IMG/VR virus record: IMGVR_UViG_3300037010_001286
Location: 18,149-82,148 of that record
DNA length: 64,000 nt
From: a virus
Direction: 5' to 3' (one strand)
Shown here: one piece after another, positions 1,349-60,506 of the stretch
Layout of the letters: every line of letters starts with the position of its first letter
Numbering within the stretch: the first letter of the stretch is position 1
Made by a program: the position numbers and the translations under genes
The notes under the pieces: model-generated
Database searches by the model: none
Told to the model about the DNA's origin: nothing
What the model saw: only the letters and a program-made list of their open reading frames with translations

Positions 1349-1903
1349 ATGGAACTTGAAATATCTAGCAATAGTAAACCACCTAAAACTGTGTACTATG
1401 ATGAGAAAAATAAGACTTATAGTATTTATATCTTTGATGATATTGGATACCCGTTTCAGTATATTAAAGTATTACAAGCATTAGACAAAGCATCAGCTGA
1501 TAGCACAATTAAAATCTTTATTGGCTCTAACGGAGGTCTATTAGATACTACAATTGCTTTAGTAGAACATATAAAAAATTGTAAAGGTACTACAATTGCA
1601 TACGTAAGTTTTGCAGCCAGTGCTGCTACTATATTAGCTCTTGCTTGTGATAAAGTTTATCTATATCAGAACTCATACTTTATGTGTCATAACTTCTCAA
1701 CAAGAGGTTCAGGAAAAGGCGCAGAATTAAAGGCTAGAGCTGCCTTTGATGATGCGTGGTCTAAGCTTGTCTTTGCTAGTTTGTACAAAGGATTTATGAC
1801 TGAAGCTGAGATTGATGAAATGCGTAATGATAAAGACTTTTGGATGCTTCAACCTGAAGTGGAAAATAGACTTCGAGCAATTGATAAACTTTTAGAACAA
1901 TGA
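1349..1903 (+). CDS. ClpP-like serine protease
   Basis: IGSNGG, AASAA (catalytic Ser), FMCH (catalytic His), DFWM near the C-terminus. Confidence 0.85.
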   Translation: MELEISSNSKPPKTVYYDEKNKTYSIYIFDDIGYPFQYIKVLQALDKASADSTIKIFIGSNGGLLDTTIALVEHIKNCKGTTIAYVSFAASAATILALACDKVYLYQNSYFMCHNFSTRGSGKGAELKARAAFDDAWSKLVFASLYKGFMTEAEIDEMRNDKDFWMLQPEVENRLRAIDKLLEQ

Positions 1904-2634
1904 ATGTAGCTTTAAAGTTCCTTGAATATTTAAATTCAAGGAGTCCTGAAGCTCCTAGCAAAAGTGTTGAAGAACTCTACAACTTATATAAATATTCTTC
2001 TGTGTTTATTCCCCCTAGTAGTATTACTGTAACCGAGGATACTGTAACCCCTGTTTATCGTTTTAAGGTAGATAAGTTTATAGATCTTGTAAAATATTTA
2101 GATACTATTACCATTCAACAGGAAGATATTGATAGAGTAAATGAGTTTCTTAAATCATGTTCTAAACTAGAAGTCAGGGCTTTTACAAAGATATTGACAA
2201 CACCTAAAAAGATATTTACTCGTTTCTTGCCACTACCTGAGGTTGACCCAGGGCAATGTGTTATTCAAGTAGTACCAAAAAATACTACTCGGTTAATTAT
2301 AAAAGTGTATAAAGGTGATATTAAAGTTTTAAAAGGTAATCCTAGTAAAGAACAACTACTATCCTTGCAAACTAACTTTATACATTATACTGGTATTTTA
2401 TACTTTTTTATTGACGAAGAGTTAATATATTGGTATGATTTTAAGAGTAACTTGCTTACAACAAAGAGAATGTTATATCTAAGTTCTCAAAGAGAGTCCA
2501 AGATTTTAAAAATCTTAACCCCTTATTTCTTTAATAGCTTTGTAGAGGCTTTGAGGTATTATTATACTTCTGAAATAATATTAAAGCCTCTTAAAGGTAC
2601 TTTTAAAGACATCTATATTTTTAAAGGAATGTAA
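1900..2634 (+). CDS. Hypothetical protein; probable degenerate ATP-dependent DNA ligase paralog
   Basis: KFIDLVKYLDTITIQQEDIDRVNEFL aligns by eye with ligase KFMDIAKFLSENSINAEHLRNTINFL; no KxDG motif. Confidence 0.55.
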   Translation: MNVALKFLEYLNSRSPEAPSKSVEELYNLYKYSSVFIPPSSITVTEDTVTPVYRFKVDKFIDLVKYLDTITIQQEDIDRVNEFLKSCSKLEVRAFTKILTTPKKIFTRFLPLPEVDPGQCVIQVVPKNTTRLIIKVYKGDIKVLKGNPSKEQLLSLQTNFIHYTGILYFFIDEELIYWYDFKSNLLTTKRMLYLSSQRESKILKILTPYFFNSFVEALRYYYTSEIILKPLKGTFKDIYIFKGM

Positions 2635-2828
2635 TGAAAGTTTTAATAGAAAATATCTCTATAATGGGATTGAGACTTACTCATTTTGCCCAACTTATGC
2701 AATACTTAGAGGATAGAGATAGAGAGGGCTGGTACTATGGTAATAGAAAACAGTTTGAAAAAAGACATGAAGAACTACGTCAATGGCTTACTAATACTAT
2801 TGTTTTATTAGGTAATAACAATGGATAA
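2634..2828 (+). CDS. Small hypothetical phage protein
   Basis: TAATG overlap with the upstream gene, AAGGA RBS. Confidence 0.7.
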   Translation: MKVLIENISIMGLRLTHFAQLMQYLEDRDREGWYYGNRKQFEKRHEELRQWLTNTIVLLGNNNG

Positions 2829-2997
2829 GTTAGAATATCAAAGGTTAGTTAAAGAAGTTCCACTGTCCAAAACTTGTTTGGATGTTGTAGTCATCCAGGA
2901 TAGATATATAAAACATCTTGAGGCTGTTAATGAAAATTATAGTAATACAATAATAAAATTACGTACTCAAGTTAAAAAACTAAAGGAAAACAAATGA
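2821..2997 (+). CDS. Small hypothetical protein (58 aa, not in ORF track)
   Basis: ATG 2821 to TGA 2997 fills the gap; ATGA overlap with the polymerase start. Confidence 0.6.
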   Translation: MDKLEYQRLVKEVPLSKTCLDVVVIQDRYIKHLEAVNENYSNTIIKLRTQVKKLKENK

Positions 2998-5567
2998 CAA
3001 TATTTACACTTACACCAAAAGCTGAACCAAAAGCTCTAATTATTCTTCCTGAGAAAGTTTGTAATATGGGAGCAGCTAATTTCCTCCTTACTAAACTTAT
3101 TCAACCTTTAGGACTTAGTGTCAATGACTTTGCATTTGCTGGTGCATATGTTCCTGAAAAAGGTAGATTAAAGAAAGATGACTTTATTTCAGAGTTCAAT
3201 GAAATTTTAAGTTACTGTGAGGTTCATAATATCAAAGTACTTGGTTGTGGTAACTCGGGTTATTATGAGTGGCTTACCGGAGATAAAAAGTTCCAATTAA
3301 ACATTGGTAGAATTGTTAAAGGTATTAACATTGCAGAAGATTTTTCAGTAGCACCTATATTAAATCCAGTTATCCTTAATATGTTTCCTGACCGTGCAAA
3401 AGAATTACATAGAGGAATATCAGCTATCAAAAATTTACTTAGTGGTACTTATACTGACCCAGTTGAAACTCTCGACTTAACCTTAAATGCTATATTAAAA
3501 GACCCTCAAGATATTTACATTCATCTTAAAGCGTGGATTGATGCCCCTGAATTATTTGTGGATATTGAGACAACTGGTCTCGCTTGGTATAATGATAAAA
3601 TATTGACTATAAGCTTTGGGTTAAATGAAAAAGAGGCATTTTGTGTAGCTGTACATGAAAAGTATCATGACACTGAAACTTATATGAAAATAGTCAAGAC
3701 CCTTAAAGCTTTCTTTACACAGTATAAAGGTAAACTTATTGGTCATAACTGGATAGGGTTTGACCAAGCGTTCATTGTACATGAAATTATGAGAGGTTTT
3801 GACTTTTCAATTGACCACGCCCCTATTATCAATATGTTTAATTTAGAGGACTCTATGCTACTCGCTTACGTTGAATATAATTCAACAGAAAGACCTTCTT
3901 TAGGTCTAAAAGAACTAGCATTTTCCTTTATGGGTGAATATGACGCTGATATAGATCAAAAGAACCTATATAATGCTGACCTATATAAGGTAGCAACTTA
4001 TAATAACTATGATGTTATTGCAACGTGTCGTATATGGAAACAATTAAAAGCAGAAGTAGCTGCTGAGAGTTTACCTCTTTATGATGTATATCAAGAGATA
4101 CGTGATATTGCTCATACACTTCTTAAAGTCAAGATGAATGGATTACGTGTTAACAAAGAGGGTGTTAAAGCAGCCATTGCTGAATTAGATGAAATGATTG
4201 TAGATAGTACCCTTAAGTTCCGAGACCATCCAGTTGTTCGTACGGCTGAAGAACTTCTTAATAAAGCAGCTTTTAAAAAGCATAATAGTACTTTGAAAAA
4301 TAAAAAGACTTGGGCAGATTATAAAGCAAATTATTATGAGCCTTTTAATCCTAGTTCCCCAAAGCAAAAGCAATTCCTGTTTTTTGAGGTATTAAATTTG
4401 CCTATTGTTAAAGTAAGTAAAACTTCTAAGCTCCCTAGTACAGATGCAGAGTCTTTTGAAGAATGGATGACTATGGATTTGCCAAAAGATACTCGTGAGG
4501 TATTAGAACTTATACAAGATATTCAAACTGCTGAGAAAGTAAATAACACCTACCTTCGTGCATTTTATGAGAGTAGTGTAGAAGTAAAACCTGGACACTG
4601 GAAAGTATTTACTAACTTTAATAGTACAGGAACAATTAGTGGTCGTTTAAGTAGTTCAGGGGGACTAAACTTCCAAAACTTACCTTCTAATAGTAAATAT
4701 GGTAAACTGATTAAAAAGCTTTTAATTTCAGATGATGGGTATATTATTCTTGCTTCAGACTTTGCTGCTCTTGAAGATAGGTTAATAGCTATTGAGGCTA
4801 ACGATAAAAATAAGCTACGTGTATTTACTGACGGGATTGACGGTCATAGCCTTAATGCCTACGCTTACTTTAAAGATAAGCTTGAAGAGAGAGGAATTAT
4901 TATTGATATTGATAGTGCAAAATCTATTAATAGAATTAAAACTGAAGCTCCTGATTTAAGACAATTGGGTAAATCAGTAACATTTGGTCTAAACTATGGA
5001 AGTAGTCCAAAGAAAATTGCTTCACAGTTAGGTGTTAGTATCCAAGAGGCTGAGAAAATTTATCAAGGATATTGGGAGTTATATGCCCCTACTAAAGCTT
5101 ATAATGACTTAGCTATTGAAGAGGCTAGAACAACAGGAGCAGTGGTATCTACATTTTCAGGGCTACGTGTTAAAATGGCTAGTATTAATGCTAGAGATGA
5201 GTACCTCAGAAGTAAAGAAGAAAGACGTGCAGCTAATTTTAAAATACAGTCGGGTAACTTTCTAACCCTTCGAGCATTGCACGGGTTTCAGAAGGCCATT
5301 GAAGATGCTGATATGTTGGGTAAAGTGTTTGTAACAAATACTGTACATGATAGTCTATATTTGCAATCTAAGGCGGATGAGGAGACTATTAAGTGGGTTA
5401 ATGATACTCTTATAGGTTTGATGTGTAGAGATTATAAAGAAAATCAAGCTATTAAGTTAGAGGCAGAACTTGATTTAGGTTTCTCTCAGAAAGATATGAT
5501 AACTATTAAAAATAACTGCCCTATTAAAGAAATTTCTATAGTTTTAGAAGAACTTCAAGGTCACTAA
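2994..5567 (+). CDS. polA: Family A DNA polymerase with 3'-5' exonuclease and an extra N-terminal domain
   Basis: Exo I DIETTG, TGTISGRLSS, motif A DFAALEDR, motif B RQLGKSVTFGLNYG (Phe at the 762-equivalent), motif C TVHDS. Confidence 0.95.
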   Translation: MTIFTLTPKAEPKALIILPEKVCNMGAANFLLTKLIQPLGLSVNDFAFAGAYVPEKGRLKKDDFISEFNEILSYCEVHNIKVLGCGNSGYYEWLTGDKKFQLNIGRIVKGINIAEDFSVAPILNPVILNMFPDRAKELHRGISAIKNLLSGTYTDPVETLDLTLNAILKDPQDIYIHLKAWIDAPELFVDIETTGLAWYNDKILTISFGLNEKEAFCVAVHEKYHDTETYMKIVKTLKAFFTQYKGKLIGHNWIGFDQAFIVHEIMRGFDFSIDHAPIINMFNLEDSMLLAYVEYNSTERPSLGLKELAFSFMGEYDADIDQKNLYNADLYKVATYNNYDVIATCRIWKQLKAEVAAESLPLYDVYQEIRDIAHTLLKVKMNGLRVNKEGVKAAIAELDEMIVDSTLKFRDHPVVRTAEELLNKAAFKKHNSTLKNKKTWADYKANYYEPFNPSSPKQKQFLFFEVLNLPIVKVSKTSKLPSTDAESFEEWMTMDLPKDTREVLELIQDIQTAEKVNNTYLRAFYESSVEVKPGHWKVFTNFNSTGTISGRLSSSGGLNFQNLPSNSKYGKLIKKLLISDDGYIILASDFAALEDRLIAIEANDKNKLRVFTDGIDGHSLNAYAYFKDKLEERGIIIDIDSAKSINRIKTEAPDLRQLGKSVTFGLNYGSSPKKIASQLGVSIQEAEKIYQGYWELYAPTKAYNDLAIEEARTTGAVVSTFSGLRVKMASINARDEYLRSKEERRAANFKIQSGNFLTLRALHGFQKAIEDADMLGKVFVTNTVHDSLYLQSKADEETIKWVNDTLIGLMCRDYKENQAIKLEAELDLGFSQKDMITIKNNCPIKEISIVLEELQGH

Positions 5568-6422: not shown

Positions 6423-7646
6423 ATGAACTTTGAAAAGTTATCACTAATAACTATATTACAACGAAAAGACCCTACACTACTCCAAACATTAAGTGTACAC
6501 CACTTTAAAAAACCTGCTCATAAAACGCTTTTTAAAGCACTCATAAGCTATAACAAACAATTTAGTAAAATCCCTACTGTTGATATATTATCATCTGCCA
6601 TACAGACTCAAATGGACGCTGATAAAGCATCTATATACGTTTCTATGCTAGAGTCGTTCAAAGAATATGATGGAGAACTTCCATCCTCTGAAGAAATTAT
6701 AAAGAACCTTGATGATGCTTATCTTATTGCTAATGTGGATGCTCATATTGAGCAATTAGTTGAAGCCGCTAAATCAAAAGATATTGAAACAGTAAAAAGT
6801 TTACTCAGTAAATTGGACAATTCCGTATCAACTAGTTCCAAAAAGCCTGAAAATATCCTTGATGTAACTTATGAACCCTCTAAAATTCGTACAATAGACT
6901 CTTGTATGGAGTCTATGAGAGCGAATAATCTTAAAATGGGAGGATTAGTACTAATTGGAGGTACTTCGGGAGGCGGAAAAAGTATTTATACCTTGAAACA
7001 ATTAATGTACTCCTTCTCAGTTGATAGAGTTCCTACTTGTTTATTAAATATGGAATTAGGACTTGATGAAACTATTGCACGAATGTATTCCCAGGCAACA
7101 GGAAAAGATTTTTCTGAGGTATATGGAAATACAAATCCATCAGTTGTAGCTAGTGTAAACTCTTGGAAACAAAAATACTTCTCAGGTGATATTGAGTTTA
7201 GAATTAAATCTATCAGATATTCTATTAGTGAAATTGAACATACTATTAGAACTCAAGCAGCTCAAGGCATAGTGCTATTTGGTATTGATTATCTACAAAT
7301 TGCAGATTTAGATGTATCTACTGAAGAGTGGAAACAATTATCTAAGTTAGTAAGACTCCTACACCAACTTACTCAAGAATTACAGATAGTAATTATAAGT
7401 CCTGTTCAAATTAACTTCAGTGACACAAAAATAAAAGATAATGAGCTTCAAGTAACTATCCGAGGCTCAAGAGAGTTAGAATTTAGCTCATCCGTTTTCT
7501 TATTTATTTATCAAACCCAAGAAGAATATAAAGAGAATGTTTGTAGAATTTTTACTGTTAAGGCACGTAATGCTAAGAAACAAATTTATCTAACTCAGAC
7601 CCTTTTCTCACAGATGAATTTTATTGATACAGGGGTAGTATTATAA
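6423..7646 (+). CDS. DnaB-like replicative helicase
   Basis: Walker A GTSGGGKS, LNMEL, IDYLQ, SPVQ, RGSRELE, VKARN. Confidence 0.9.
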   Translation: MNFEKLSLITILQRKDPTLLQTLSVHHFKKPAHKTLFKALISYNKQFSKIPTVDILSSAIQTQMDADKASIYVSMLESFKEYDGELPSSEEIIKNLDDAYLIANVDAHIEQLVEAAKSKDIETVKSLLSKLDNSVSTSSKKPENILDVTYEPSKIRTIDSCMESMRANNLKMGGLVLIGGTSGGGKSIYTLKQLMYSFSVDRVPTCLLNMELGLDETIARMYSQATGKDFSEVYGNTNPSVVASVNSWKQKYFSGDIEFRIKSIRYSISEIEHTIRTQAAQGIVLFGIDYLQIADLDVSTEEWKQLSKLVRLLHQLTQELQIVIISPVQINFSDTKIKDNELQVTIRGSRELEFSSSVFLFIYQTQEEYKENVCRIFTVKARNAKKQIYLTQTLFSQMNFIDTGVVL

Positions 7647-7700: not shown

Positions 7701-8597
7701 ATGCTACGTGAACTAATATTAAATAAATTAGAAGTAGAGGGACGGAAGTGGACTCCTAGCGGTAAAAACTTCATAATCACTCACTGCCTTAACCCTAATC
7801 ATCATGATAAAAAGCCATCATTTGCCATTAATCTTGAGTCAGGATTTGGTAAATGTTTTTCTTGCTCTTTCTCTGTCAATAAGAAATATTGGTTAGATGA
7901 TATGCAAAATGATGAGGATGTAATTGATGAACTTATGAGAGCTTCATTATATAATAAAATAGAGAAGTTATATGATACCAAGGACGTTAAAACTGCTCCA
8001 ACTCTTTATATGCCCAGTGTTAGCAGACCAGTTGAGCCAGGTTGGAGAGGACTTAATAAAGATACAATAGAAAAGTATCAATTATACATTTGTGAGTCAG
8101 GACACTTTCAAGATAGAGTTATATTCCCTATGTGGGATTACAAAGGTAACACTGTTGCTTTTAATTCAAGAGCACTTAACACTCCTTTAGAAGGTATGCA
8201 AAAATATAAATATTCTAAAGGTTTATTTGTAAATGAATTGATATATCCCCCTATTGATAAAGGTGTAAATTATGTAGTACTTGTTGAGGGAATTATGGAT
8301 GCTCTTCTTATGAAGCAAGATGGCATCAATGCAATTTTTAACTTTGGGATAAATATGACTTTCGGTAATAAGAAAATCTCCGAGTTACTTAAAAATGGTA
8401 TTGAAACTATTTATATTGGGTTAGATAATGATACTGCTGGTATTGAAGGAACTGTAAAGTACCTTACAAGTAGCCTTTCAGATTATTTTGAAATTAAACA
8501 CGCTAGAATGTTTAAAGGTCTTGTACCTTACTATATGAGTGGTTGCAAAGACTATGGTGAATTTAAAGAAAAGGAACTTAATGACTATAACAAATGA
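7701..8597 (+). CDS. DNA primase (CHC2 zinc finger + TOPRIM)
   Basis: CLNPNHHDKKPSF...CFSC, VEGIMD, LDND. Confidence 0.92.
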   Translation: MLRELILNKLEVEGRKWTPSGKNFIITHCLNPNHHDKKPSFAINLESGFGKCFSCSFSVNKKYWLDDMQNDEDVIDELMRASLYNKIEKLYDTKDVKTAPTLYMPSVSRPVEPGWRGLNKDTIEKYQLYICESGHFQDRVIFPMWDYKGNTVAFNSRALNTPLEGMQKYKYSKGLFVNELIYPPIDKGVNYVVLVEGIMDALLMKQDGINAIFNFGINMTFGNKKISELLKNGIETIYIGLDNDTAGIEGTVKYLTSSLSDYFEIKHARMFKGLVPYYMSGCKDYGEFKEKELNDYNK

Positions 8598-9009: not shown

Positions 9010-10422
9010 TTAGAATGAGTCCTCGAAAGGTAGACTCATCTGCTCTCCTTTAATTAAATCATAATTTAGTTTAAAAGATATTTCCCCATTCCCTGTAATA
9101 ATTTTATACTTATGTAAAGTTATAGAAAAGTCCTCTTTTACCTCTTTAGTAAGTATGAAATCAATGTTATAATATTGTGCCTTTGCTCTAAAGTACATGT
9201 AACACGAACTACATAACCCCTTCACATTAGTCTTTGTTATAGCACCACAACATTTACACATAAATACTCCTGCACCTGATACATCGGATATTCTACTTCT
9301 AACTATATTATCTCCTAACTTAATGTCAGTTACAGTTATAAATCGGTTATCTAAACCTTTATCAATAAAATCTTCATCAATATTACGATAGTATCTTTCT
9401 CCTGTACTAAGAACTAAACCAATAGGCATATAATCATCATCTAAAATATAGTCTGATACCTTTTCGACCCGGTTTTCAACTCTAAAAAGTACCTTTATTA
9501 GACCATTTGAGAACACTAATAGGTTATTCTCTAGGATTTTGGGAATTATTTGACTAAACTCATTAGCGTTATTTAAAAGGATATTTTGAGTGTGTCTAAT
9601 CTCGATATAGTTAAATTCACTCTCAGGAAAGTATTTTTTCATACTAAAATCAAAGTCAGATAAGTTTACATCAACATTCCCTCTATATAAGTTCAAAATA
9701 CTTTTATAATCTTTTGATAAACAAATAGGAACTAATTGCTTACCGTGTCTACGATTAGCTTTCTTACTAAATATAAATATACACCCAAAGTTATTATAGT
9801 GAAAGTTATTTATAAAGTAGTCACGTACAAGCTTATTAGATAGATTACTTTTAATGCTATTACCACGTTTAATGATATAGTATAGCTTAGACTTCTTACG
9901 ACAACTTTTAGGTATATTTACCAAAACTGCTGGAAATTTAGCATTAGAAAAATCGAAAGACCTTGAAATTCCTTCTAAATGTTCTTCCATATACTCATCT
10001 AAGTGGGTAGGGAGTTTTATATATGTACTAAATAATGTACTTAATTCATGTAAATTCTCAAGGGAATTTAATAAAAACTCAACACCAAGTTTTTCCATAA
10101 TAGACTTATTGAAAATAGAAGCTATAATTTGTTGATGATTTACGGACATTCTTTTAAGTTCTACCCTAGCAGCTGCTAAGTTATCTTCTTGTAACCAATA
10201 ATATACTTTTCCTATATTATCTAACAGAGGTAAATTTTCGGTATTCTTATTTGGAACAATACTTACATTAAATTTTATTGGGGAGTGGATAGTTAAGGAG
10301 ATGATAACCTCAAGTAACTCTTTATTCTCAGGGGAGGATTTATAAAATTCTATGAATTTCTTTGCCCCTAAGTTAGGCAAAGAGTTTTTAATTAATAGAA
10401 TTAGATTAGCAAGTTCATCCAT
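9010..10422 (-). CDS. Hypothetical protein; probable inactivated DNA-ligase-fold protein with a C-terminal Cys4 zinc finger
   Basis: N-terminus resembles the ligase DNA-binding domain; CKCC...CSSC; ends QMSLPFEDSF; overlaps the sigma gene stop. Confidence 0.55.
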   Translation of the reverse strand: MDELANLILLIKNSLPNLGAKKFIEFYKSSPENKELLEVIISLTIHSPIKFNVSIVPNKNTENLPLLDNIGKVYYWLQEDNLAAARVELKRMSVNHQQIIASIFNKSIMEKLGVEFLLNSLENLHELSTLFSTYIKLPTHLDEYMEEHLEGISRSFDFSNAKFPAVLVNIPKSCRKKSKLYYIIKRGNSIKSNLSNKLVRDYFINNFHYNNFGCIFIFSKKANRRHGKQLVPICLSKDYKSILNLYRGNVDVNLSDFDFSMKKYFPESEFNYIEIRHTQNILLNNANEFSQIIPKILENNLLVFSNGLIKVLFRVENRVEKVSDYILDDDYMPIGLVLSTGERYYRNIDEDFIDKGLDNRFITVTDIKLGDNIVRSRISDVSGAGVFMCKCCGAITKTNVKGLCSSCYMYFRAKAQYYNIDFILTKEVKEDFSITLHKYKIITGNGEISFKLNYDLIKGEQMSLPFEDSF

Positions 10423-10978
10423 CTTCGACCTCAAAATAATCTTTCATGTGGAGTAGGCAGGTAGTTATAATACGTTTAACTTTAGCACGACTAAAACCAA
10501 CTAACTCACTGATTTTAACTACACTATCCTGTAATATAAAATAATCGTACAGGATACGATGTTCTAATGGCGTTAAGCTTTCTAAATATGTAGAAAACTC
10601 TTCAGCACACTGTAAACGTACTATTTCATCATCTATATCACTTAAACTATGATCTACAAACTCTTCTTCTAAGAGACCAGCAGAAGTAAATGAATGCATC
10701 TCTCTATTAGATTGAACTGACCCAGGACGCACAGTAGAGCTTCCTTTAGGACTATTTCTACCAATATAATCTAAAATAGCACCGGAAACACGTCTATAAG
10801 CATACCCCATATAAAAATTATTCTTACTTTCCTCATATTTTTCTCGTGCTTTAACGTAGGCCAGTAAACCCTCTTGAACTAAATCATCTAGCTCTACATA
10901 GTAGTTAGAACGAAGAAAATACTTATAAGCAATCTTCTCTACAAATTCATAGTCTTTCTTTGGAATTTCTTCTATCAC
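10415..10978 (-). CDS. RNA polymerase sigma-70 family factor, FliA/sigma28-like
   Basis: Region 2 DDLVQEGLLAYVKAREKYE...YAYRRVSGAILDY; region 4 HTH ISELVGFSRAKVKRI. Confidence 0.88.
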   Translation of the reverse strand: MIEEIPKKDYEFVEKIAYKYFLRSNYYVELDDLVQEGLLAYVKAREKYEESKNNFYMGYAYRRVSGAILDYIGRNSPKGSSTVRPGSVQSNREMHSFTSAGLLEEEFVDHSLSDIDDEIVRLQCAEEFSTYLESLTPLEHRILYDYFILQDSVVKISELVGFSRAKVKRIITTCLLHMKDYFEVEDG

Positions 10979-35277: not shown

Positions 35278-38200
35278 CTAGTGCTTGACTACGTTATTTA
35301 TAATTTGTCTACCAGCTCTTGAAGTTAAGTAAGACTCTATAACTGAAGGATCAATAGAATTTACAATAACAACCTCAGATTGAGTAGAAGAAGACTGTTG
35401 AGGGGCTTTAGAATTTCCTGCCTCTTTAATTGCTGCCATGTCTTTTCTACTAAGAACATACTCACCAGTTTGTAGAGTTGCAGGAACCTCATCACTTCGT
35501 AATCCTGTTCTATTATCGTTATAGACATAACCCCCTGTGTGGAAAGTTTGTGCTTTAATTTGTGCAACTTGTTGCATACCAACCGCAATAGCTCCTGCAG
35601 CAGCTATTGGAGCTAAAAAAGTGCCGCCAGGTAATAATCCAGCATCTCTATAAGCATTTGATGCTGCCATGTAGGTATTAACTATTGCAGAAGCAACTTG
35701 TAGAGCTTGTGAAGCTCTCAAAGCTGCCTTTGATCTCTTCCCTGATAGTAGAAAAGCTGTTTGAGCAATCTCATTTAATCCTTGGAAACCAACTTGAGCA
35801 GATTTAAGCTGCATACCCATTTGAGCCTCTTGTGCATCTGCAGCTGCTTTATTTTGAGCAATAATAGTATCGTTTGTAATTCTATTACGTTCTATTTTTA
35901 TTCTATCGATTTCATCTTGAATAGCTTGTAGAGCTGCTGCATCAGATTGCATTTTTGCTGCTTGATTTAATGTATCTTCTTGGTTATTTAAAGTATCAAT
36001 TTGAGTATTAGCATTAGCTGCATATTTGTCAAAGTTAGCTTGTGTTCTTTCTGCATACTCTTTATAAGTAACTTTATTTAATCCAAAACCAGTAGATAGG
36101 GCACTAGGGCCTGATGCGTCAGCTCTATTAGCTAATTCATTTTCCCTAGCAGCTCTAGTTGCTAGAATTTGTTTAGCTCTATCCTCCCCTACTGAGGAAC
36201 CTAAAGAACTTAACTGTGCTTGTCTTTCTAATTCATCTGTGTATTTTTTAGTAGTTTCTAGAAGGTCTTGATATTCAGCATTGATTCTACGACTAGCAAT
36301 AATTTCTTGAGCAGTAGCTGCTGTGGCTTTTGCTCTATTTTCAGCTATCTTTTCAGTAGTTTGAACTATGTCCTTATCAGTAGCTAAAATTTCCTGATTA
36401 GCTTCTTCTAATTTTTTAACTAGCTCATTATGTTTCTCAAGATTACCTGAACCATTCTGATTAAATTCTTCTATTTCCTTAGTTATATCTTCTCGTTTTT
36501 TTAGTAATTGTGTTAATAATTCTGATTTCTCTGCCTGCATACGCATAGTACTAGCAATTCTTTCTTCATATATCTCACTTTGTTTTCTAGCTTCTAAAGA
36601 AGTATCATTTGCTCTATCTAATGCGTCATTTGCCTCTTTTTGTTCTTGTGTAGTTCGTTCTAAGGCATCACTAAGATTAGTATATAAAGCTACTCTTTTC
36701 TCATCTAAAGCAATACCATCTTGTTTTAGATTATTTATTTCTCCTAATGTTAATAATTGTTCTTTTACAGAGTTTAGTTTATCAATATTCTCTTGTGGGC
36801 CAGTATAATTCTGAACCATATCAGTAACCATACCTGCTGCTACTGTTCTTTTTGTTTGATCTTCCTCTGATAACCCTTTTTTATTAGTACTCAAAGTAGC
36901 TTTAAAATTTTCAATAGCTAATAGTTTATCAGATGTAGTACCTTTAAAATTTGCTAGGAATGTTTTTATTTCATCTGCAACAGGTTTACCAGCCCCATCC
37001 ATAACCTTAACCAATTGGTTTGTTAGGTTTTTTTCATCACCAAATAAAGCATTTATATTCTTGTCAATAATTTCAAGAGTTGCTCTTATTCTATCATTAA
37101 CATCATCACTAGCATTATAAGCCTTATTAATTTCTTCAACTTGAGCAGTAAGGGCTTTAATAGTACTTTCCGGAACTGATTGATGAACCTGGGTTGGAGT
37201 ATCAGCAGGTATAGTACTACTACCAGTAACCAAAGGTATAGAAGTTGGGATATTAAAACGCCCATTCGCTCCAGTTGTTGTATATAACTGTGCTGATGGA
37301 GAAGTATCTGTATGATACTTTCCATTATCATCTTGTATTAATATTCGATTTCCACCTTGTCTATACGGGTTTTTATCTGTTGCTAAGGATACATGGACTG
37401 TATCCTTCTCTAAAATTAGCTGAGCAATATTAGCCATTAATTTAGCATTAGATTTAATAAGCTCAAATACCTCTACAGGAGTCTTATTAGGTATATTTAT
37501 ATCTGCTCCTAACCCTTTTGTATGGTCAGAATTTGGTACTCCTCCTACCTTTTGATTTACAACTGGGTCTCTAACTCCACTAGATACATGAACATTTAGT
37601 CCATTATCTCTCATATATAATATAAGGTTAGTAAGTCTCTCGAAGTTATTCTTTATAGGATCACTAATAGCATACATTAGATTATTAATCTCTTCACCTT
37701 TTACATTTGTATGAACTAATTCTCCTCGTACTTCATCAGCTGATTTCCCTACTGTTTGTTGTGCATTAACTGTAGGAGTATTTGCTATAATATTTTGTTG
37801 TCCTGAAGCTACTCTAGCTTTATTATATGATTCTATTAGAACATTTAGCAACGTAGTTAATTTTGATACATTATCTTTATTATTAAAATCAGCAGCTGTT
37901 AAATCTTTTTGGATACCTCCAACTGTATTTTGAAATTGAGTAAGCTTATTAAGTAAAGCAGTATCAGATTGTGGAACTGTTTTTATTATTTGAGCTATAG
38001 AAGCAGATATGGAACTAGCAAAGTTAATCATAGCTGTTTTAGTATTATCTCCAGCAGCACTAAGAGTAGTACTTGAGAAGTCATTAGGGTGTTTATTCAT
38101 ATCTTGATATGCTAATACATTAGTTTTAGCGATAGTAAGATTAGAGTGAGCATCAGCTAGTGTAGCAAGTACCTTCGTTTGTTCTCTAAGTGTTTTAACA

Positions 38201-41200
38201 AGTTCCTGTTCTTTATATAATTGTTCTGTAAGGGCTGCTCTTTGATTAACATCTGTTGTAGCTCTAATTTGGTCAAGAGTATTTCTTACTTTTTGTTCGG
38301 CTACTGCTAATTGAGTAACTCTACTAGTCTCTGAGCCTACATCTTTAATAGAAGCATAAGCAGCAGCAGCCGCAGCAGCTACTAACGTAAATAATACTAC
38401 TAATGGGTGTCTTTCTACAACCCCAAGGGCTGCAGCCAATCTCTCTTTTAATACAGTAGATAATCCTACAACAGCTGTTGTAGTAGCTTCAACACCATTA
38501 ACCATTTCAGTAGTAGTTCGTACAAATGTACCTGAAACCATTAAACTTTGTACTGCTATCCAAGAAGATTTTAATAATTCAAGATTTGCAATAGCTTTAC
38601 TTACAACAAAAGCAGATGCAAAGACAGCTCCAAGTATTTTTAGATTTTCAATTGTACCACTAGTAAATTCACCCATATGTCTATTTAAAACATCTAAAAC
38701 CTGAACAGTTCCATCTACAGCATTCTTAGCTGTTGGTAGTAATGTACCAGCAGTCTTATTAAATGCAATTCCTAAAGAGTTTCCTAATTTTTCCCAAGTA
38801 ATTGCATAACTTTCAGTAACATAGGCAGCTTTATCAACTTCACCTTTAACCCCTGCATTAAGGGTTTGAAGGTGTCTAAAAAACTCGTCAGCATTATTAC
38901 GAAGTAATGTAACAGACTGTAAAGCTTGTACATCCATACCTTTTGTAATTCTTGCGAAATCTGAGTCAGAAATATTCTTTAATTTAGAAACAAACTCTGT
39001 CATTGCTGCGTTAGACTCATTTACACCCATTTTTAGTCTAGCAGAAAATTCAGCTTGACTTACACCCATAGATGTAAAGAAATTAACTGCCTCTTTACTA
39101 GTATCCCCAATAAATGAAGATAATCTACGAACCTGAGTTCCAATAGTAGATGCATTAACCCCTGCATTAGAGAAGGCAATTGCCATAGCATCAACAGCAT
39201 TACGAGTAAATCCTACTGATTTAGCAGCAGCTAAAGCATAGTTTGCAAGTGTACCAATATCTTGAGTAGATAGGCGTGATTGGTTAGCTACATATGCTAA
39301 TGAATCACCCATAGCCTCTATATTTGGTACAGAGTCTCCATAAACTTCCATATAAGATATTAAAGCACTTGCTGATGATTGAAAAGTATCCCCAGTTAAT
39401 CTAGCCATCTTAATAATAATTTCAGTCGCACTAACTACTTCCGATTTATCAAAACCAGCACGTCCTAATGCTAAGGCAGTTTCATTAATATCTTTTAAAG
39501 AACCTCCAAATTGTGTACCAAGGTCTGCAAGTCTACCCTCTAATTTTGTTGCAGAGTCTGAGGACATATCAAGTACTGCAGATAGAGTATGAATAGCTTG
39601 GTCATACTCTAACATATAGGAAATACCTTCTGAAAGTGCTTGAGTAACCTGCGATATTCCAGCATATAAAGAAGTATAGGCTAAAACTCTTCCTCCAATA
39701 TTCTGTAACCACTTAGTAAAACTTAAGTCATTAAGTTGTGCATTAAGATGTTTAGTAATTTCTGAGCTTTCAGCTAACTTTTTATTAATGTTTTGTAATT
39801 GAGCACTACCTTCTTTAATTGTAGTTGAAAAGTTAGTACTAGTTGTAAAACTTTCATCAAATTGCTGCTTCGCTCTTCGTACACGTTCAAGTTGTTGGCC
39901 TAGTAATTCAATCTGATGTTGAGCTTGGTCAAGACTAGAATCTTTAGCCCAATTAGTTTTAGCATTTTTTAGTCTCTCTAACTCCCCAATTTGTGATATA
40001 TATTTCTTAATAGTATTATCAAACCCAACATCGATAGTAGACTTACTATCGAAACTTTGTTTTAATGAGCTAAACTTATCTTTTAAGATATTTATGTCAC
40101 TACCTGTAGCAATTAATTCACCACGTAGTGCCTCTAAACTATGTAAACCTAAATCTTTATTACCAGGATTTAAATTTGCATTTGCTTCTATCTTATTTTC
40201 ATACTCATTTATCTGTCTTAATAGTCCTAACTTCTTATTTAAGTCTGATAACTCTGAACTTGCTACTTTAGGAGACGCCTCTCCTCCCTTTGTTTTACTA
40301 GAAAGATTAGTATTAATAGACTCTATCTGTCTTTTAAGAGCCTCAAGAGTACTTGTAGAAGTAGTACGAAGAGACTGTCCAATTCTATCTACTTCTGCTA
40401 ATAAACTTTTTGCTGCTTCTTTAGCATTAATAAAGTTTTTAGAAAGATTTACATCTTCTTTTGTACTAAGAGCTAAATCTGCTAAATTTCCAGTATTACC
40501 TGTTGCAGTATTTATCTTCTTAGTATAATTATTAACATCTTTAGTACTTAAAGAAGTAGGGGTTAATGTAAGTAATTTTTTTCTTTTCTCTATTTCAGCA
40601 TCTAATAGCTTAAGTACCTTTTGTCCAGTTTTTAAGTCCTCAATTGATGCACTATACTTCTGAGATTCTAAACTCTTATTTAGTAACTCACGTCTCTTTT
40701 CTAATAGTGCTATATCACTTACTAATACTGATTTTGACTCTTTTTGTTGTTTTAATAGTGTATTTTGAGTTTCTAAAAGAGACTTATATGTTAAATCCAT
40801 AGATTTTAATAGTGTATCAGTTTGTTGATTATTTAGTTTTCCACTAACTATTTTATCTTTAGAATTATCTAAAGTAGTTATAGCTTTATTCTTTTCAGGA
40901 CTTTTCAAATCAAGAGATTTAAATTTTCTAGAAGCTTCCTCAACTTTTAAAATAGTAGCATAATATTTTTCCATATCTCGATTAAGCTTACCGAGTTGAG
41001 TACCTCTACCAGTAGTTATTAAGATATTATTAACAGCAGATAATTTATCTTTGAGAGAAGTTAAAATTGTATCAGAAACTCCTAAACCTTTTAAAGCTGT
41101 TAAGAGATTTTGGATATTTATATTTGCACCTTTAGCTGTACCACTTAATTGGTCATTAAATCCCTTAAAAGTACCAGTAACTGCTGCTAATTTTGTATTT

Positions 41201-46793: not shown

Positions 46794-47990
46794 TTAATAT
46801 TTTAAATGTGAATTTACTGTTAAATCAATTGCTTGACGTAGCTTAAGTAAATTATCAATATAATCGTCTGTAGCCTCAGAACTCGCTACATAAGACAAAA
46901 CCTGCTCAAAAGAAAGAACATTAGGTAGTTGACCTTCATCCTCAGCCTTTTTGGAATCATCGCCCTCAGCATTTTGGATGTTAATTTCGTTACCATCTTC
47001 ATCAGTTAGTGGTGTATCAAGAGTATTATCGTCTATTTCTTTTTCAACTGTCTCTAAGTCTAAAATAAATTTAGTAATATCTTCAGGAACTTCCTCAATT
47101 ACTTTAATTTCTACCATTTCTTCATAGTGTTTTAGAAGATGTTTTGCAGCTAAAATCTTAGTTTCTTTACTATATACTAACTCATCTTGGACACTTTTAA
47201 GTGCAGCAAATGCAGATTGGACTCCACCTTTACTTACAATAAGTTTACCCTCAATAAACTCGTGATGAGGGAATTTCCAAGAACTTTTCTTTTCAAGGTC
47301 TCCTACAACTAAATAAGCTTCCTCAATCACCTCTTTAGTGGCATCAGAACTAATAGTATCAAGAAGGATAGATTTGTCTACTTCATTCCAACGTTTATTA
47401 GATATTTCTTTATTTTTAATTTTTTTAGCACAAGAAAGGGTATGAGTACTAGTAGCTTTACTTGCTAGTAAACAACTACCGTTAGCACAAGGAGATTGTG
47501 TTAGAGTAGTAAAAATAGAATCTTGATTATCCGGTACTGCTACAATAGAAACCTCTAAAAGCTCAACAGATTTATAGTAGTAAATGTCAGCTAAGGCATC
47601 ATAAACACTATCAAGTGGCTTAAATCCTATAGAAAGTGTTTTTAATATACGATTTTTAACAGCATAATATACTTTTTCATTAAGAACTTGGTGGACTTCT
47701 GCAGTAATCTCTAGTCCATCTAGTGTTACATTAATGTCAATAACTTTACCAACAGGTTCTTGATTATCATGGTAAGATAATAGAATTGGGTTTTTCTTAA
47801 AATTATCTAAGTTATACCCACTAGGAAGAACTGAATCTCCACTACGGTCTACAACAACTTGACCGTTATCATCAAGGAATCTATTAGCAAACCCCTTAAT
47901 ATAAATAATGTCTGCGTTATTAGGACTACCAGGAGTACCTAAATCCTTAACAATCTCTAAGTCGTTCATTACTAATGTTAGTTTATCCAT
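46794..47990 (-). CDS. Prohead protease (HK97/U35) with extra C-terminal domain
   Basis: NPILLSYH, LSIGF, LLEVSIVAVPDN. Confidence 0.9.
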   Translation of the reverse strand: MDKLTLVMNDLEIVKDLGTPGSPNNADIIYIKGFANRFLDDNGQVVVDRSGDSVLPSGYNLDNFKKNPILLSYHDNQEPVGKVIDINVTLDGLEITAEVHQVLNEKVYYAVKNRILKTLSIGFKPLDSVYDALADIYYYKSVELLEVSIVAVPDNQDSIFTTLTQSPCANGSCLLASKATSTHTLSCAKKIKNKEISNKRWNEVDKSILLDTISSDATKEVIEEAYLVVGDLEKKSSWKFPHHEFIEGKLIVSKGGVQSAFAALKSVQDELVYSKETKILAAKHLLKHYEEMVEIKVIEEVPEDITKFILDLETVEKEIDDNTLDTPLTDEDGNEINIQNAEGDDSKKAEDEGQLPNVLSFEQVLSYVASSEATDDYIDNLLKLRQAIDLTVNSHLKY

Positions 47991-59213: not shown

Positions 59214-60506
59214 ATGGCATACAAAATATTAACTCTAATAAAAGAAACTAAAGGAACTCTTGCAAAAGAGGAAATTCTTCATAAAGAAAAGGATAATACG
59301 GATTTAAAGGATTTATTATTTCTTACTTTTAACCCCTTTTTAAACTTTGGTATTAAAAATTTAAAGCTAACCAAATCTTCTGCAACAAATCCCAAAGACT
59401 TTCACAAAAAATTTATGGATATTGCAAAATTTCTATCAGAAAACTCAATTAATGCTGAGCATCTAAGAAATACTATAAATTTCCTTGAGCAGTTAGAGAA
59501 AGAAACTCAAGACATATATACTGCTGTAATTACAAAAAGTTTGTCTATCGGATTAGCTGCAAAATCTATAAATAAAATTATCCCTGGTCTAATACCAACA
59601 TTTGAGTGTATGTTAGCAGAACCTACAATGGGCACTTCAGAGTTTCCAGTAATTGTGCAAGAGAAATTAGATGGAGTAAGATGTATTATGGTAAAAAAAG
59701 AAGGTAAAGTAACCTTTTATACTCGTCAAGGTAATACAATTCCCCTATTATTATTATCTAAACGTATTTCAGAACTTCCACATGATAACTTTATACTGGA
59801 TGGGGAGCTTTTACTAAAAGGAACTGATAGAAAAAATACATCAGGTAAGATAAATTCTTTAATGAAGAGTGGTTATAATAAAGAAATTGATGAGTTAGTA
59901 GAATATTACATATTTGATTTTATGTCTCTTGAGGAGTGGGAGTCAAAATCGTCGCGGTTTACTAATTTTAATAGAACTGGAGAAGTATTGGGATTAGTAA
60001 ACATACTAGGAGAGCCTTTCTTCATTCCAAAACAGACAATTGCTTATGCTGAAGAGGATATTCATAGATTTTATAAAGAGATTAGGGCTAATTTAGGAGA
60101 GGGAGTTATCATTAAAACAGATACTCCTTATGAGTGGAAGAGAAGTAAGAGCTGGACAAAGATGAAAGCTATTTGTATGACAACTCTACAGATTATTGAT
60201 TTTGTAGAAGGTAAGGGTAAACACGCAGGAAAGGTAGGAGCAATTACTTGTAAATCAGCAGACGGACTGGTTACAGTAAATGTTAATCCGAAAACTGATG
60301 AAATACGTCAATATATTACTGAAAATCAGAAAAAATTACGATATTCGCTAATAGAAGTTCTATTTAATGAGTTAATTAGTGATAAATCGGGTGGTTATAG
60401 TCTATTCCTACCAAGAATGGCTGATAATTGGCAAAGATTTGATAAAACTCATCCTGATACCCTTGAAGATATTAAAAAAGAGGTGTTATCTACTGTAAAT
60501 CAATAA
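59214..60506 (+). CDS. ATP-dependent DNA ligase
   Basis: EKLDGVR, LDGEL, YIFD, EGVIIK, KMK, LFLPR...RFDK. Confidence 0.95.
   Translation: MAYKILTLIKETKGTLAKEEILHKEKDNTDLKDLLFLTFNPFLNFGIKNLKLTKSSATNPKDFHKKFMDIAKFLSENSINAEHLRNTINFLEQLEKETQDIYTAVITKSLSIGLAAKSINKIIPGLIPTFECMLAEPTMGTSEFPVIVQEKLDGVRCIMVKKEGKVTFYTRQGNTIPLLLLSKRISELPHDNFILDGELLLKGTDRKNTSGKINSLMKSGYNKEIDELVEYYIFDFMSLEEWESKSSRFTNFNRTGEVLGLVNILGEPFFIPKQTIAYAEEDIHRFYKEIRANLGEGVIIKTDTPYEWKRSKSWTKMKAICMTTLQIIDFVEGKGKHAGKVGAITCKSADGLVTVNVNPKTDEIRQYITENQKKLRYSLIEVLFNELISDKSGGYSLFLPRMADNWQRFDKTHPDTLEDIKKEVLSTVNQ

What the first reader, a model, noticed from the sequence alone, without database searches (positions are those of the whole stretch)
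1900..2634. Second, miniaturised ligase-like paralog in the replication operon
Seen: KFIDLVKYLDTITIQQEDIDRVNEFLKSCSKLEVRAFTKILT aligns without gaps to ligase KFMDIAKFLSENSINAEHLRNTINFLEQLEKETQDIYTAVIT. Further matches: VIQVVPKNTTRLIIKVYKGDIKVLKGN vs IVQEKLDGVRCIMVKKEGKVTFYTRQGN; IYWYDF vs YYIFDF; SEIILKP vs EGVIIKT. It has no OB domain and no KxDG. Both putative paralogs carry (V/I)PK at the motif I position. Inference: one active plus two inactivated ligase copies, possibly forming a complex or acting as decoys or inhibitors.
Basis: partly seen in the sequence, partly recalled or inferred. Interest (0 to 1): 0.7.

Follow-up and report, generated by a model that had tools for sequence, protein, structure and literature searches.

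The report
Dead mini-ligase in phage replication operon
A phage gene sitting just before its DNA polymerase encodes a shrunken copy of a DNA-joining enzyme that has lost its catalytic residues yet is kept by selection, so it probably works by binding rather than by joining DNA.

Summary
ORF 1900-2634 (244 aa) is a real, conserved gene. It descends from the phage's own T4-type ATP-dependent DNA ligase (59214-60506).

Evidence:
- Profile-profile: E 7.4e-9, 211 columns. The sequence signal lies in the N-terminal DNA-binding domain, E 1.5e-8.
- A template-free AlphaFold model (pLDDT 91.6) shows the nucleotidyltransferase fold. An exhaustive PDB scan puts DNA ligases at ranks 1-14, Z up to 13.5.
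- The adenylated lysine is V, I or L in 11 of 11 family members. The metal-binding acids and motif V lysines are gone, and there is no OB domain.
- The residues that hold adenine and ribose in T4 ligase are kept.

The family is small: 10 clusters among 1.84 billion proteins. All members are basic, and listed variants lean synonymous. The gene sits between a ClpP-like gene and PolA in 4 of 4 loci.

Three records over 80 kb each carry this gene, a true ligase and a 474-aa protein. That third protein's ligase ancestry is only suggestive.

Function is inferred: most likely a non-catalytic replisome accessory. I found no paper on such a phage protein. An earlier scan note describes a dead Zn-tailed ligase beside SbcC in another genome.

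The parts
1900..2634 (+). Whole ORF, 244 aa: catalytically dead two-domain ligase paralog
   Evidence: ORF. Nine full-length relatives of 239-250 aa. hhalign to the ligase family E 7.4e-9. AlphaFold model pLDDT 91.6.
1900..2214 (+). Residues 1-105: helical domain homologous to the T4-type ligase DNA-binding domain
   Evidence: hhalign of this part alone against 42 ligases: E 1.5e-8, 83 columns. T4 ligase DBD 5wfy: Z 8.0, 97 residues aligned on model 2-102. The A1 HMM hits the N-terminus of the true ligase in 6 of 6 records of this ligase clade.
2215..2631 (+). Residues 106-244: shortened nucleotidyltransferase (adenylation) fold, ending at about motif V, no OB domain
   Evidence: VIA-align: model 104-243 against the ASFV ligase NTase domain, Z 13.5, rmsd 2.5 A, 139 aligned. 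By sequence alone it is not significant (E 0.014).
2266..2292 (+). Residues 123-131: degenerate motif I (Q-x-[VIL]-P-x-x-x-x-R)
   Evidence: hhalign pairs Q123/V125/K127/R131 with ligase Q149/K151/D153/R156. Column counts: Q 11/11; nucleophile position V5 I5 L1; K7 D2 R1 N1; R 10/11.
2425..2442 (+). Residues 176-181: motif IIIa strand with an aromatic or His residue, then an invariant Asp
   Evidence: Y/H179 (H8 Y3) and D180 (11/11) pair with ligase F234/D235.
2569..2589 (+). Residues 224-230: motif IV strand. The Glu-Gly pair is lost and the Lys is kept.
   Evidence: S224/E225 (variable) pair with E296/G297. L/I227 and K229 (11/11) pair with I299/K301.
1349..1903 (+). Upstream ClpP-like protease gene, translationally coupled (ATGA overlap)
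   Evidence: Pfam CLP_protease 2.5e-10 and phrog_1827 1.3e-43. Junction. Same neighbour in L002, L004 and L026.
2994..5567 (+). Downstream family A DNA polymerase
   Evidence: Pfam DNA_pol_A 7.4e-51. It lies downstream of the dead ligase in 4 of 4 loci: directly in L004 and L026, after small ORFs in the window and L002.
59214..60506 (+). Intact T4-type ATP-dependent DNA ligase, the likely parent lineage
   Evidence: Pfam DNA_ligase_A_M 3.6e-15 and phrog_114 2.6e-86. Family profile against T4 ligase 6dt1: E 1.7e-100. All motif residues are invariant in 42 of 42 homologs.
9010..10434 (-). 474-aa protein: candidate second dead ligase paralog (suggestive only)
   Evidence: N-terminal domain against the ligase DBD: E 1.1e-4, probability 56. 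Foldseek's top hits are ligases, on a model of pLDDT 54. VIA Z is at most 5.5.

Best explanation
Shown: ORF 1900-2634 encodes a member of a small, conserved phage protein family. The family descends from the T4-type ATP-dependent DNA ligase that these same phages carry. It keeps the helical DNA-binding domain and a shortened nucleotidyltransferase domain. It has no OB domain. It has also lost the lysine nucleophile, the metal-binding acids and the motif V lysines, so it cannot adenylate itself or seal nicks.

Inferred: it works by binding. The side chains it keeps invariant are those that hold the adenine and ribose of AMP in T4 ligase (Gln, Arg, an aromatic residue, an aliphatic residue, Lys). 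The protein is also uniformly basic. I therefore propose that it recognises a nicked or gapped DNA junction, an adenine nucleotide, or both. I propose it acts as a non-catalytic accessory of the family A polymerase replisome, whose genes it is co-translated with. Poxvirus A20/A22, an inactive ligase fold that serves as a polymerase cofactor, is the analogy.

My odds: dead ligase paralog about 0.9; acts in replication by binding DNA or a replisome partner about 0.4; keeps an adenine-binding pocket about 0.4.
For: Homology:
- hhalign of 11 family members against 42 ligases: probability 95.8, E 7.4e-9, 211 collinear columns. Reversed control: E 0.64.
- The family HMM finds the N-terminus of the true ligase as its only other hit in 6 of 6 records that carry this ligase clade, E 4.7e-7 to 2e-4.

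Fold:
- Template-free AlphaFold model, pLDDT 91.6.
- The first 23 Foldseek PDB rows are ligases or ligase-containing complexes.
- An exhaustive VIA scan of 48,161 chains gives DNA ligases at ranks 1-14, Z 13.5 to 10.9.

Inactivity: the residues aligned to ligase K151, D153, G154, E296 and G297 are not conserved in 11 sequences, whereas they are invariant in 42 of 42 ligases. There is no invariant lysine after residue 229.

Kept residues: Q123 11/11, R131 10/11, H/Y179 11/11, L/I227 11/11, K229 11/11. Through these map to T4 Gln157, Arg164, Trp282, Ile347 and Lys349. Those are the adenine N6, ribose 3'-OH, stacking and adenine N1 contacts (PMC6212786, section 16, read).

Selection:
- Nine full-length relatives at 25-34% identity with the same length.
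- Of 19 variant codons listed from run contigs, 11 are synonymous, against a synonymous-site fraction of 0.207. Indels compensate within a few bases.

Charge: pI 8.6-9.7, net positive in 11 of 11.

Context:
- The order helicase, ClpP-like, this gene, PolA is kept in 4 of 4 loci, with overlapping stops and starts.
- A true ligase and the 474-aa gene are present in 3 of 3 records over 80 kb.
Against: - No binding or activity was tested, and no multimer model could be made.
- The nearly invariant DNA-contact loop of the ligase DBD (G113, N120, K121 in the ligases) has no conserved counterpart in the family in the hhalign pairing. Canonical DBD-DNA contact is therefore not assured.
- The motif mapping rests on two chained alignments. 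Motif III could not be aligned by hhalign.
- The C-terminal domain is not significantly ligase-like by sequence alone.
- The kept residues could be conserved for folding only.
- Gene order shows co-expression, not interaction.
- The tight coupling is to the ClpP-like gene, not directly to PolA, in 2 of the 4 loci.
- The listed variants are only the best supported rows: 40 were shown and 176 were not.
Confidence: 0.45

Rival explanations
1. Nucleotide binder not acting on DNA. The retained adenine pocket sequesters or senses an adenine-containing small molecule (ATP, NAD+, ADP-ribose or a cyclic oligoadenylate immune signal). The protein would then be a sponge against host defence, or a metabolic sensor.
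For: The adenine and ribose contact residues are kept while the phosphate, metal and nucleophile residues are lost. Snurportin-1, an NTase fold that only binds a cap nucleotide, matches at Z 10.7, rmsd 3.1, 136 aligned. The gene lies in an early-looking operon.
Against: The ligase DNA-binding domain is the best conserved part relative to the ligase. The protein is strongly basic. No PADLOC match, and no defence or anti-defence context. The gene is always embedded between replication genes.
Confidence: 0.2
2. Ligase regulator or decoy. It occupies nicks, or binds the phage or host ligase. This would delay or direct nick sealing, for example by protecting programmed nicks or recombination intermediates.
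For: It shares the DBD lineage with the phage's own ligase. It co-occurs with that ligase in 3 of 3 records over 80 kb. Without an OB domain it could bind a nick but not close around it.
Against: It is encoded 57 kb from the ligase gene, in a different operon. The ligase's conserved DNA-contact loop is not kept. There is no evidence of nicks in this genome.
Confidence: 0.15
3. Partner or adaptor of the upstream ClpP-like protease. It would bring a DNA-bound or nucleotide-bound substrate to the protease.
For: Stop and start overlap with the ClpP-like gene in all four loci: 4 nt in the window and L002, 1 nt in L004, 11 nt in L026.
Against: ClpP-like homologs occur in 406 phage records. The one neighbour tested (Alteromonas phage AD45-P1) is unrelated, hhalign E 0.44. 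No precedent is known to me.
Confidence: 0.1
4. It is still an enzyme: a ligase or nucleotidyltransferase using another nucleophile, or the large subunit of a split ligase completed in trans.
For: The NTase fold is intact. K229 is invariant. A heterodimeric phage ligase exists in the PDB (9hu3, Z 6.8).
Against: The nucleophile position is hydrophobic in 11 of 11. The metal ligands and the motif V lysines are missing. The only nearby lysine, K127, is present in 7 of 11.
Confidence: 0.03
5. Chance resemblance or a decaying pseudogene.
For: No Pfam, PHROG or NCBIfam family matches.
Against: Profile E 7.4e-9 against a control of 0.64. Fold Z 13.5. Full-length conservation at 25-34% identity. Variants lean synonymous. 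Synteny is conserved.
Confidence: 0.02

Closest known systems
Bacteriophage T4 DNA ligase (gp30; PDB 6DT1, DBD alone 5WFY) and related phage ATP-dependent ligases (PDB 9FZX; phrog_114)
   Same: The same compact helical DBD followed by an NTase domain. Z 13.1-13.5 over 229-232 residues. The DBD is related by sequence to the phage's own T4-type ligase. The adenine and ribose contact residues are kept.
   Different: No OB domain. The NTase domain is about 58 residues shorter: 139 aa against roughly 197 aa, by my domain limits as used. The motif I lysine, the motif I and IV acids and the motif V lysines are lost. It does not reach Pfam PF01068.
Poxvirus DNA polymerase processivity factor A20 (MPXV A22), middle domain
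   Same: A viral, catalytically inactive DNA ligase fold that serves the replicative polymerase. PMC11142717 calls A20 residues 67-310 'an inactive DNA ligase' (passages read). MPXV A22 matches the model at Z 9.7, rmsd 4.9, 173 aligned. A pteropox processivity factor appears in BFVD at E 9.6e-3.
   Different: A20 keeps NTase plus OB and lacks the ligase DBD. It bridges a family B polymerase and a UDG through extra terminal domains. Here there is DBD plus NTase, no OB and a family A polymerase. No interaction has been shown.
Snurportin-1 m3G-cap-binding domain (PDB 1XK5)
   Same: An NTase fold of the ligase and capping-enzyme superfamily that has lost catalysis and only binds a nucleotide. Z 10.7, rmsd 3.1, 136 aligned.
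   Different: It is eukaryotic, derived from a capping enzyme and binds a guanine cap. It has no DBD and no link to DNA replication.
Three-domain dead ligase with a zinc tail beside phage SbcCD
   Same: A second conserved phage protein that looks ligase-derived and is probably inactive. It is encoded in the same genomes.
   Different: It is a different family: hhalign between the two gives E 0.24. It has roughly twice the length, a Cys-rich tail and lies on the opposite strand next to sigma and SbcC. Its ligase ancestry is only suggestive in my tests.

Membership tests
ATP-dependent DNA ligase (covalent nucleotidyltransferase superfamily; Pfam PF01068) | Nucleotidyltransferase (adenylation) fold | tested here: met
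   Model 104-243 against ASFV ligase: Z 13.5, rmsd 2.5 A, 139 aligned. DNA ligases hold ranks 1-14 of 48,161 chains.
ATP-dependent DNA ligase (covalent nucleotidyltransferase superfamily; Pfam PF01068) | Motif I KxDGxR with the lysine that is adenylated | tested here: not met
   The position paired with K151 is V5/I5/L1. The D position is K7/D2/R1/N1 and the G position is variable. Only R is kept, 10/11.
ATP-dependent DNA ligase (covalent nucleotidyltransferase superfamily; Pfam PF01068) | Motif III and IV acidic residues and motif V lysines | tested here: not met
   The E296/G297 equivalents are variable. There is no invariant lysine after K229. Motif III could not be aligned by hhalign. All of these are invariant in 42 of 42 ligases.
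ATP-dependent DNA ligase (covalent nucleotidyltransferase superfamily; Pfam PF01068) | C-terminal OB-fold domain | tested here: not met
   The protein ends at residue 244, on the strand that follows motif IV. The structural matches stop at the end of the NTase domain.
ATP-dependent DNA ligase (covalent nucleotidyltransferase superfamily; Pfam PF01068) | Reaches the curated family score | tested here: not met
   No PF01068, PHROG ligase or NCBIfam ligase hit at E up to 1.
T4-type ligase N-terminal DNA-binding domain | Compact helical bundle homologous to the T4 ligase DBD | tested here: met
   hhalign of residues 1-105 against the ligase family: E 1.5e-8. 5wfy: Z 8.0, 97 aligned.
T4-type ligase N-terminal DNA-binding domain | Conserved DNA-backbone contact loop (G113, N120, K121 in this ligase family) | tested here: not met
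   These are invariant or nearly invariant in the 42 ligases. They pair with non-conserved positions 106, 113 and 114 of the family in the hhalign alignment.
Poxvirus A20/A22-type inactive-ligase polymerase cofactor | Catalytically inactive ligase fold | tested here: met
   A22 matches at Z 9.7.
Poxvirus A20/A22-type inactive-ligase polymerase cofactor | Binds the replicative polymerase and a UDG through terminal domains | not testable with these tools
   No multimer prediction or binding assay was available. Only gene adjacency to PolA is known.
Nucleotide-reader NTase domains (snurportin-1 type) | Binds a nucleotide without catalysis | not testable with these tools
   The fold matches at Z 10.7 and the adenine-contact residues are kept. 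Binding was not measured.

The most novel reading that the evidence does not exclude
A tailed phage and the poxviruses have independently turned a dead DNA ligase into a cofactor of the replicative polymerase. This OB-less DBD-plus-NTase protein would be a non-catalytic subunit of a family A polymerase replisome. It would read a nick, or an adenine nucleotide such as a 5'-adenylated DNA end, through its preserved adenine pocket. In the same phages a second dead ligase would serve the SbcCD recombination module. One ligase gene would thus have given rise to three specialised proteins.
Probability: 0.2. Interest if true: 0.75.

Novelty: new variant of a known kind. Interest (0 to 1): 0.5.

Why it matters
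Catalytically dead relatives of enzymes often become binding or scaffold proteins. For DNA ligases the described examples are few; poxvirus A20/A22 is one. This family has an architecture I did not find described: the DNA-binding and adenylation domains without the OB domain. Its pattern of loss removes the chemistry but spares the adenine-binding residues. It also has a fixed place beside the polymerase gene. If the protein proves to be a nick reader or nucleotide reader of a phage replisome, it would add a new type of replication accessory factor. It could also offer a compact protein that recognises nicks or adenylated ends. If not, it remains a clean example of ligase duplication and loss of function in an uncultured phage clade.

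Tried and rejected
Searches that gave nothing useful for the 244-aa protein:
- Pfam, PHROGs and NCBIfam: best hits were RFC1 at E 0.044, below its cutoff, and phrog_4340 at E 0.17.
- PADLOC: no match.
- megablast and tblastn against 50,697 phage records: no match.
- The family profile against PDB sequences: no ligase. Best was MJ0489 at E 0.014.
- ESM Atlas: all scores were under its own thresholds.
- Genome-contig scan with A3: 130 pattern matches, none a relative.

Related-loci scans:
- The single protein in viral contigs found no relative.
The sub-alignment A3 then worked.
- The single ligase protein in viral contigs gave nothing. The alignment A5 worked.

Expression: no RNA holder was listed for the stretch, so expression was not tested.

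Leads that failed:
- N4-like phage G7C gp38, which sits between the helicase and the DNA polymerase: hhalign E 0.052 against the family, and no similarity to the ClpP-like protein.
- The gene after the ClpP-like gene of Alteromonas phage AD45-P1: E 0.44.
- I could not show that the N-terminal 196 residues of PolA are UDG-like.
- I first recalled that the T4 ligase DBD binds the clamp. The abstract says the clamp-binding element is a loop in the NTase domain, so I dropped that argument.

Papers. Searches for phage inactive ligases found none relevant. What I read:
- PMC11142717: passages only.
- PMC13645618, PMC13697223 and PMC4889955: passages only.
- PMC6212786: abstract and sections 15 and 16.
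Supplementary files were not opened. The motif alignment of T4 ligase in the supplement of PMC6212786 could refine my residue mapping.
Full report
What is there. The window is bases 18149-82148 of an 82,148-bp virus record with direct terminal repeats. It is about 31% G+C. ORF 1900-2634 (+) encodes 244 aa. Its ATG overlaps the stop of an upstream ClpP-like gene (ATGA), and its TAA overlaps the ATG of a 64-aa ORF. It lies in a plus-strand block of replication genes:
- SF2 helicase (22-1338)
- ClpP-like protein (1349-1903)
- this gene
- two small ORFs
- family A DNA polymerase (2994-5567)
- DnaB-like helicase (6423-7646)
- DnaG-like primase (7701-8597)
That ORF matches Pfam DNA_ligase_A_M at 3.6e-15 and phrog_114 at 2.6e-86.

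Is the resemblance more than chance? By raw identity, no. The gapless 42-residue alignment has 12 identities, and 12 of 100 shuffles reach that. BLASTP of the two proteins gives one 60-residue segment: 24.6 bits, E 0.002. No Pfam, PHROG or NCBIfam model matches the protein. With relatives the picture changes.

The family. An exhaustive phmmer search of 1.84 billion representatives found 10 proteins at E up to 1e-3. Nine are full-length proteins of 239-250 aa at 24-90% identity. The tenth is a 1271-aa repetitive protein at E 8e-5, which I left out. A word-based search added one more relative at 67% identity. The alignment of the 11 sequences (A1) has 14 invariant columns.

Profile comparison with ligases. 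I compared A1 with an alignment of 42 homologs of the phage's ligase. I picked those 42 from the 120 listed of 770 hits.
- hhalign gives probability 95.8 and E 7.4e-9 over 211 collinear columns. Residues 22-236 pair with ligase residues 29-307.
- The reversed alignment, as a control, gives E 0.64.
- Split by domain, residues 1-105 carry the signal: E 1.5e-8 over 83 columns. Residues 106-244 alone do not: E 0.014.
- The A1 profile was also searched in six frames against whole virus records. Besides the gene itself it finds only the N-terminal part of the true ligase gene. This held in 6 of 6 records that carry this ligase clade, at E 4.7e-7 to 2e-4. A record with a distant ligase (28% identity) gave no hit.

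Structure. AlphaFold2 was run without templates on the 11-sequence alignment. It gave mean pLDDT 91.6 and pTM 0.75. The model has five helices (residues 3-100) followed by a beta-rich domain (120-241).
- Foldseek against the PDB lists ligases, or complexes that contain them, in its first 23 rows, at E 5.2e-6 to 1.1e-3.
- VIA-align on those hits gives Z 13.5, rmsd 2.5 A and 139 residues for model 104-243 against the NTase domain of ASFV ligase. It gives Z 13.5 with 229 residues for the whole model against a Rhizobium phage ligase.
- An independent scan of 48,161 representative chains found 31 with Z of 8 or more. Ranks 1-14 are ATP-dependent DNA ligases (Z 13.5-10.9).
- Below them come snurportin-1's cap-binding domain (Z 10.7), MPXV A22 (Z 9.7), RNA ligases (9.2-9.6) and capping enzymes (8.0-8.7). 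The isolated T4 ligase DBD scores Z 8.0 on model 2-102.
- BFVD gives viral ligases at the top as well (rows at E below about 1e-3).
So the C-terminal half is an adenylation domain by fold. The N-terminal half is a ligase DBD by both sequence and fold.

What is lost and what is kept. The phage's ligase family is T4-type: its profile matches T4 ligase 6dt1 at E 1.7e-100 over its whole length. That alignment pairs T4 residues with the phage ligase as follows: Q157/K159/D161/R164 with Q149/K151/D153/R156, W282/D283 with F234/D235, E344/I347/K349 with E296/I299/K301, and K365/K367 with K316/K318. In the 42 ligases K151, D153, G154, R156, E198, D235, R254, E296, G297, K316 and K318 are invariant.

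In the 11 family members, using the pairing and the counts:
- The nucleophile position is V5/I5/L1.
- The D position is K7/D2/R1/N1, and the G position is variable.
- The E296/G297 positions are variable.
- No lysine is invariant after residue 229.
- The protein ends about where motif V would be, with no OB domain.
- Kept are Q123 (11/11), R131 (10/11), H8/Y3 at 179, D180 (11/11), R190 (11/11), L9/I2 at 227 and K229 (11/11).

Section 16 of PMC6212786 gives the roles of the T4 residues.
- Gln157 bonds adenine N6, and Lys349 bonds adenine N1.
- Trp282 and Ile347 sandwich the base.
- Arg164 holds the ribose 3'-OH and a nick phosphate.
- Lys159 is adenylated.
- Asp161, Glu217 and Glu344 serve the metals.
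- Lys365 and Lys367 hold the AMP phosphate.
The family has therefore lost the chemistry but kept the equivalents of all five adenine and ribose contacts.

This mapping is an inference through two alignments. Motif III could not be aligned by hhalign. From the model's strand order I think that GTLDxF (residues 165-170) is the motif III strand. On that reading the Glu is replaced by an aromatic or aliphatic residue, and the loop of about 28 residues between motifs III and IIIa is deleted. I could not check this residue by residue.

Selection and properties.
- Length is constant (239-250 aa) across members that are only 25-34% identical.
- Contigs of three public runs laid on 1349-3000 show variant strains. 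The tool listed 40 differences and left 176 unshown. Of those listed, 21 fall in the ORF and change 19 codons: 11 synonymous and 8 conservative replacements. The synonymous-site fraction is 0.207. By my arithmetic that is a ratio of about 0.19.
- The listed one-base indels come in compensating pairs a few bases apart.
- All 11 proteins are basic (pI 8.6-9.7). Most of the charge is in the NTase-like half, at +2 to +14. The same half of the first 12 ligases carries -5 to +3.

Context in relatives. Four loci hold a family member: the window, L002 (in the 89.7-kb record G001), L004 (in a 21-kb metagenome contig) and L026 (in the 83.4-kb record G005). All four have the order SF2 helicase, ClpP-like, this gene, PolA, with overlapping or abutting reading frames. 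The three records over 80 kb each also hold a true ligase (55-56% identical) and a homolog of the 474-aa protein. Three further records with the same ligase clade are fragments (19-24% complete), with the ligase near an end. They cannot be judged. The phage has a 2078-aa tape measure protein, a portal, a head protein and a terminase, so it is a long-tailed phage. Its PolA is nearest to those of N4-like podoviruses, at about 29% identity.

The third protein. The 474-aa ORF (9010-10434, minus strand) has four relatives at 44-87% identity.
- Its first 115 residues match the ligase DBD at E 1.1e-4, probability 56. For the whole alignment the figure is E 7.3e-4.
- The rest shows nothing by profile.
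- Its AlphaFold model is poor (pLDDT 54). Foldseek still ranks ligases first, at E 1.3e-6 and collinear, but with TM 0.17-0.2. VIA Z does not exceed 5.5.
- It is not detectably similar to the 244-aa family.
I call its ligase ancestry suggestive. That is a lead, not support.

How it most likely works. Shown: it is a dead ligase paralog, kept by selection, in the replication operon. Inferred: it acts by binding. I favour a non-catalytic accessory of the PolA replisome that recognises a DNA discontinuity, an adenine nucleotide, or both.

In favour:
- Its fixed place beside the polymerase gene.
- The retained ligase DBD.
- Its positive charge.
- The precedent of poxvirus A20/A22, whose middle domain is 'an inactive DNA ligase' within the polymerase holoenzyme (PMC11142717, passages read).

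Against:
- The ligase DBD's conserved DNA-contact loop is not kept.
- Nothing was measured.

The rivals are a small-molecule binder (sponge or sensor), a ligase decoy, a partner of the ClpP-like protease, a non-canonical enzyme, and chance. Their odds are given in the rival section.

Comparison and novelty. It has the fold of an ATP-dependent DNA ligase and shares ancestry with one. It fails the defining features of the enzyme family: the motif I lysine, the acids, motif V, the OB domain and the curated score. It is therefore a derivative, not a member. The nearest functional analogies are A20/A22 and snurportin-1. Five literature searches found no description of an inactive or OB-less ligase paralog in phages. 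The library lacks most subscription journals, so this is not proof of absence. I rate it a new variant of a known kind, the known kind being ligase-fold pseudoenzymes. Interest is moderate: the family is small and its function is unproven. The selective retention of the adenine contacts, and the presence of three ligase-derived genes in one phage, are the unusual points.

Noticed in passing
window 9010-10434 (-): The 474-aa protein family ends in an invariant G-x-Q-x-S-L-P motif and carries a conserved Cys cluster (C389, C392, C404, C407 invariant in 5 of 5). The tail resembles beta-clamp-binding peptides as I recall them. The gene lies next to the sigma and SbcC genes in the window and in L004.
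   Followed up: partly
window 1349-1903 (+): A ClpP-like protease gene (phrog_1827, 1.3e-43) sits inside the replication operon. It is separate from a head-protease-like gene at 46794-47990. Homologs occur in 406 phage records. Its role here is unexplained.
   Followed up: partly
window 2994-5567 (+); L002 11947-13803; L004 9836-11851: PolA is nearest to N4-like podovirus polymerases (about 29% identity), although the phage has a 2078-aa tape measure protein. Its first 186 residues match no family. In two relatives the PolA ORF stops after 618 or 671 residues of the 857, which suggests a split or interrupted gene there.
   Followed up: partly
window 2615-2649: Contigs of runs X1 and X2 show a joint that 'goes back 35' bases at the junction between this gene's stop and the next ORF. 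There is also an AAA insertion behind 2636. This may be a short duplication variant.
   Followed up: no
L006 5365-5895 (Escherichia phage G7C gp38): The small gene between the helicase and the DNA polymerase of an N4-like phage aligns weakly, and not significantly (E 0.052), with the degenerate motif I strand region of the family.
   Followed up: no
window 35278-41514 (-): The 2078-aa tape measure protein has an internal endolysin-like segment (phrog_894, residues 1287-1399, E 5.3e-15).
   Followed up: no
PDB entry 9hu3 (seen): A 'PR1 phage heterodimeric DNA ligase' bound to a phage nick sequence matches the model at Z 6.8. I found no paper on it in the library. It shows that split phage ligases exist.
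   Followed up: no
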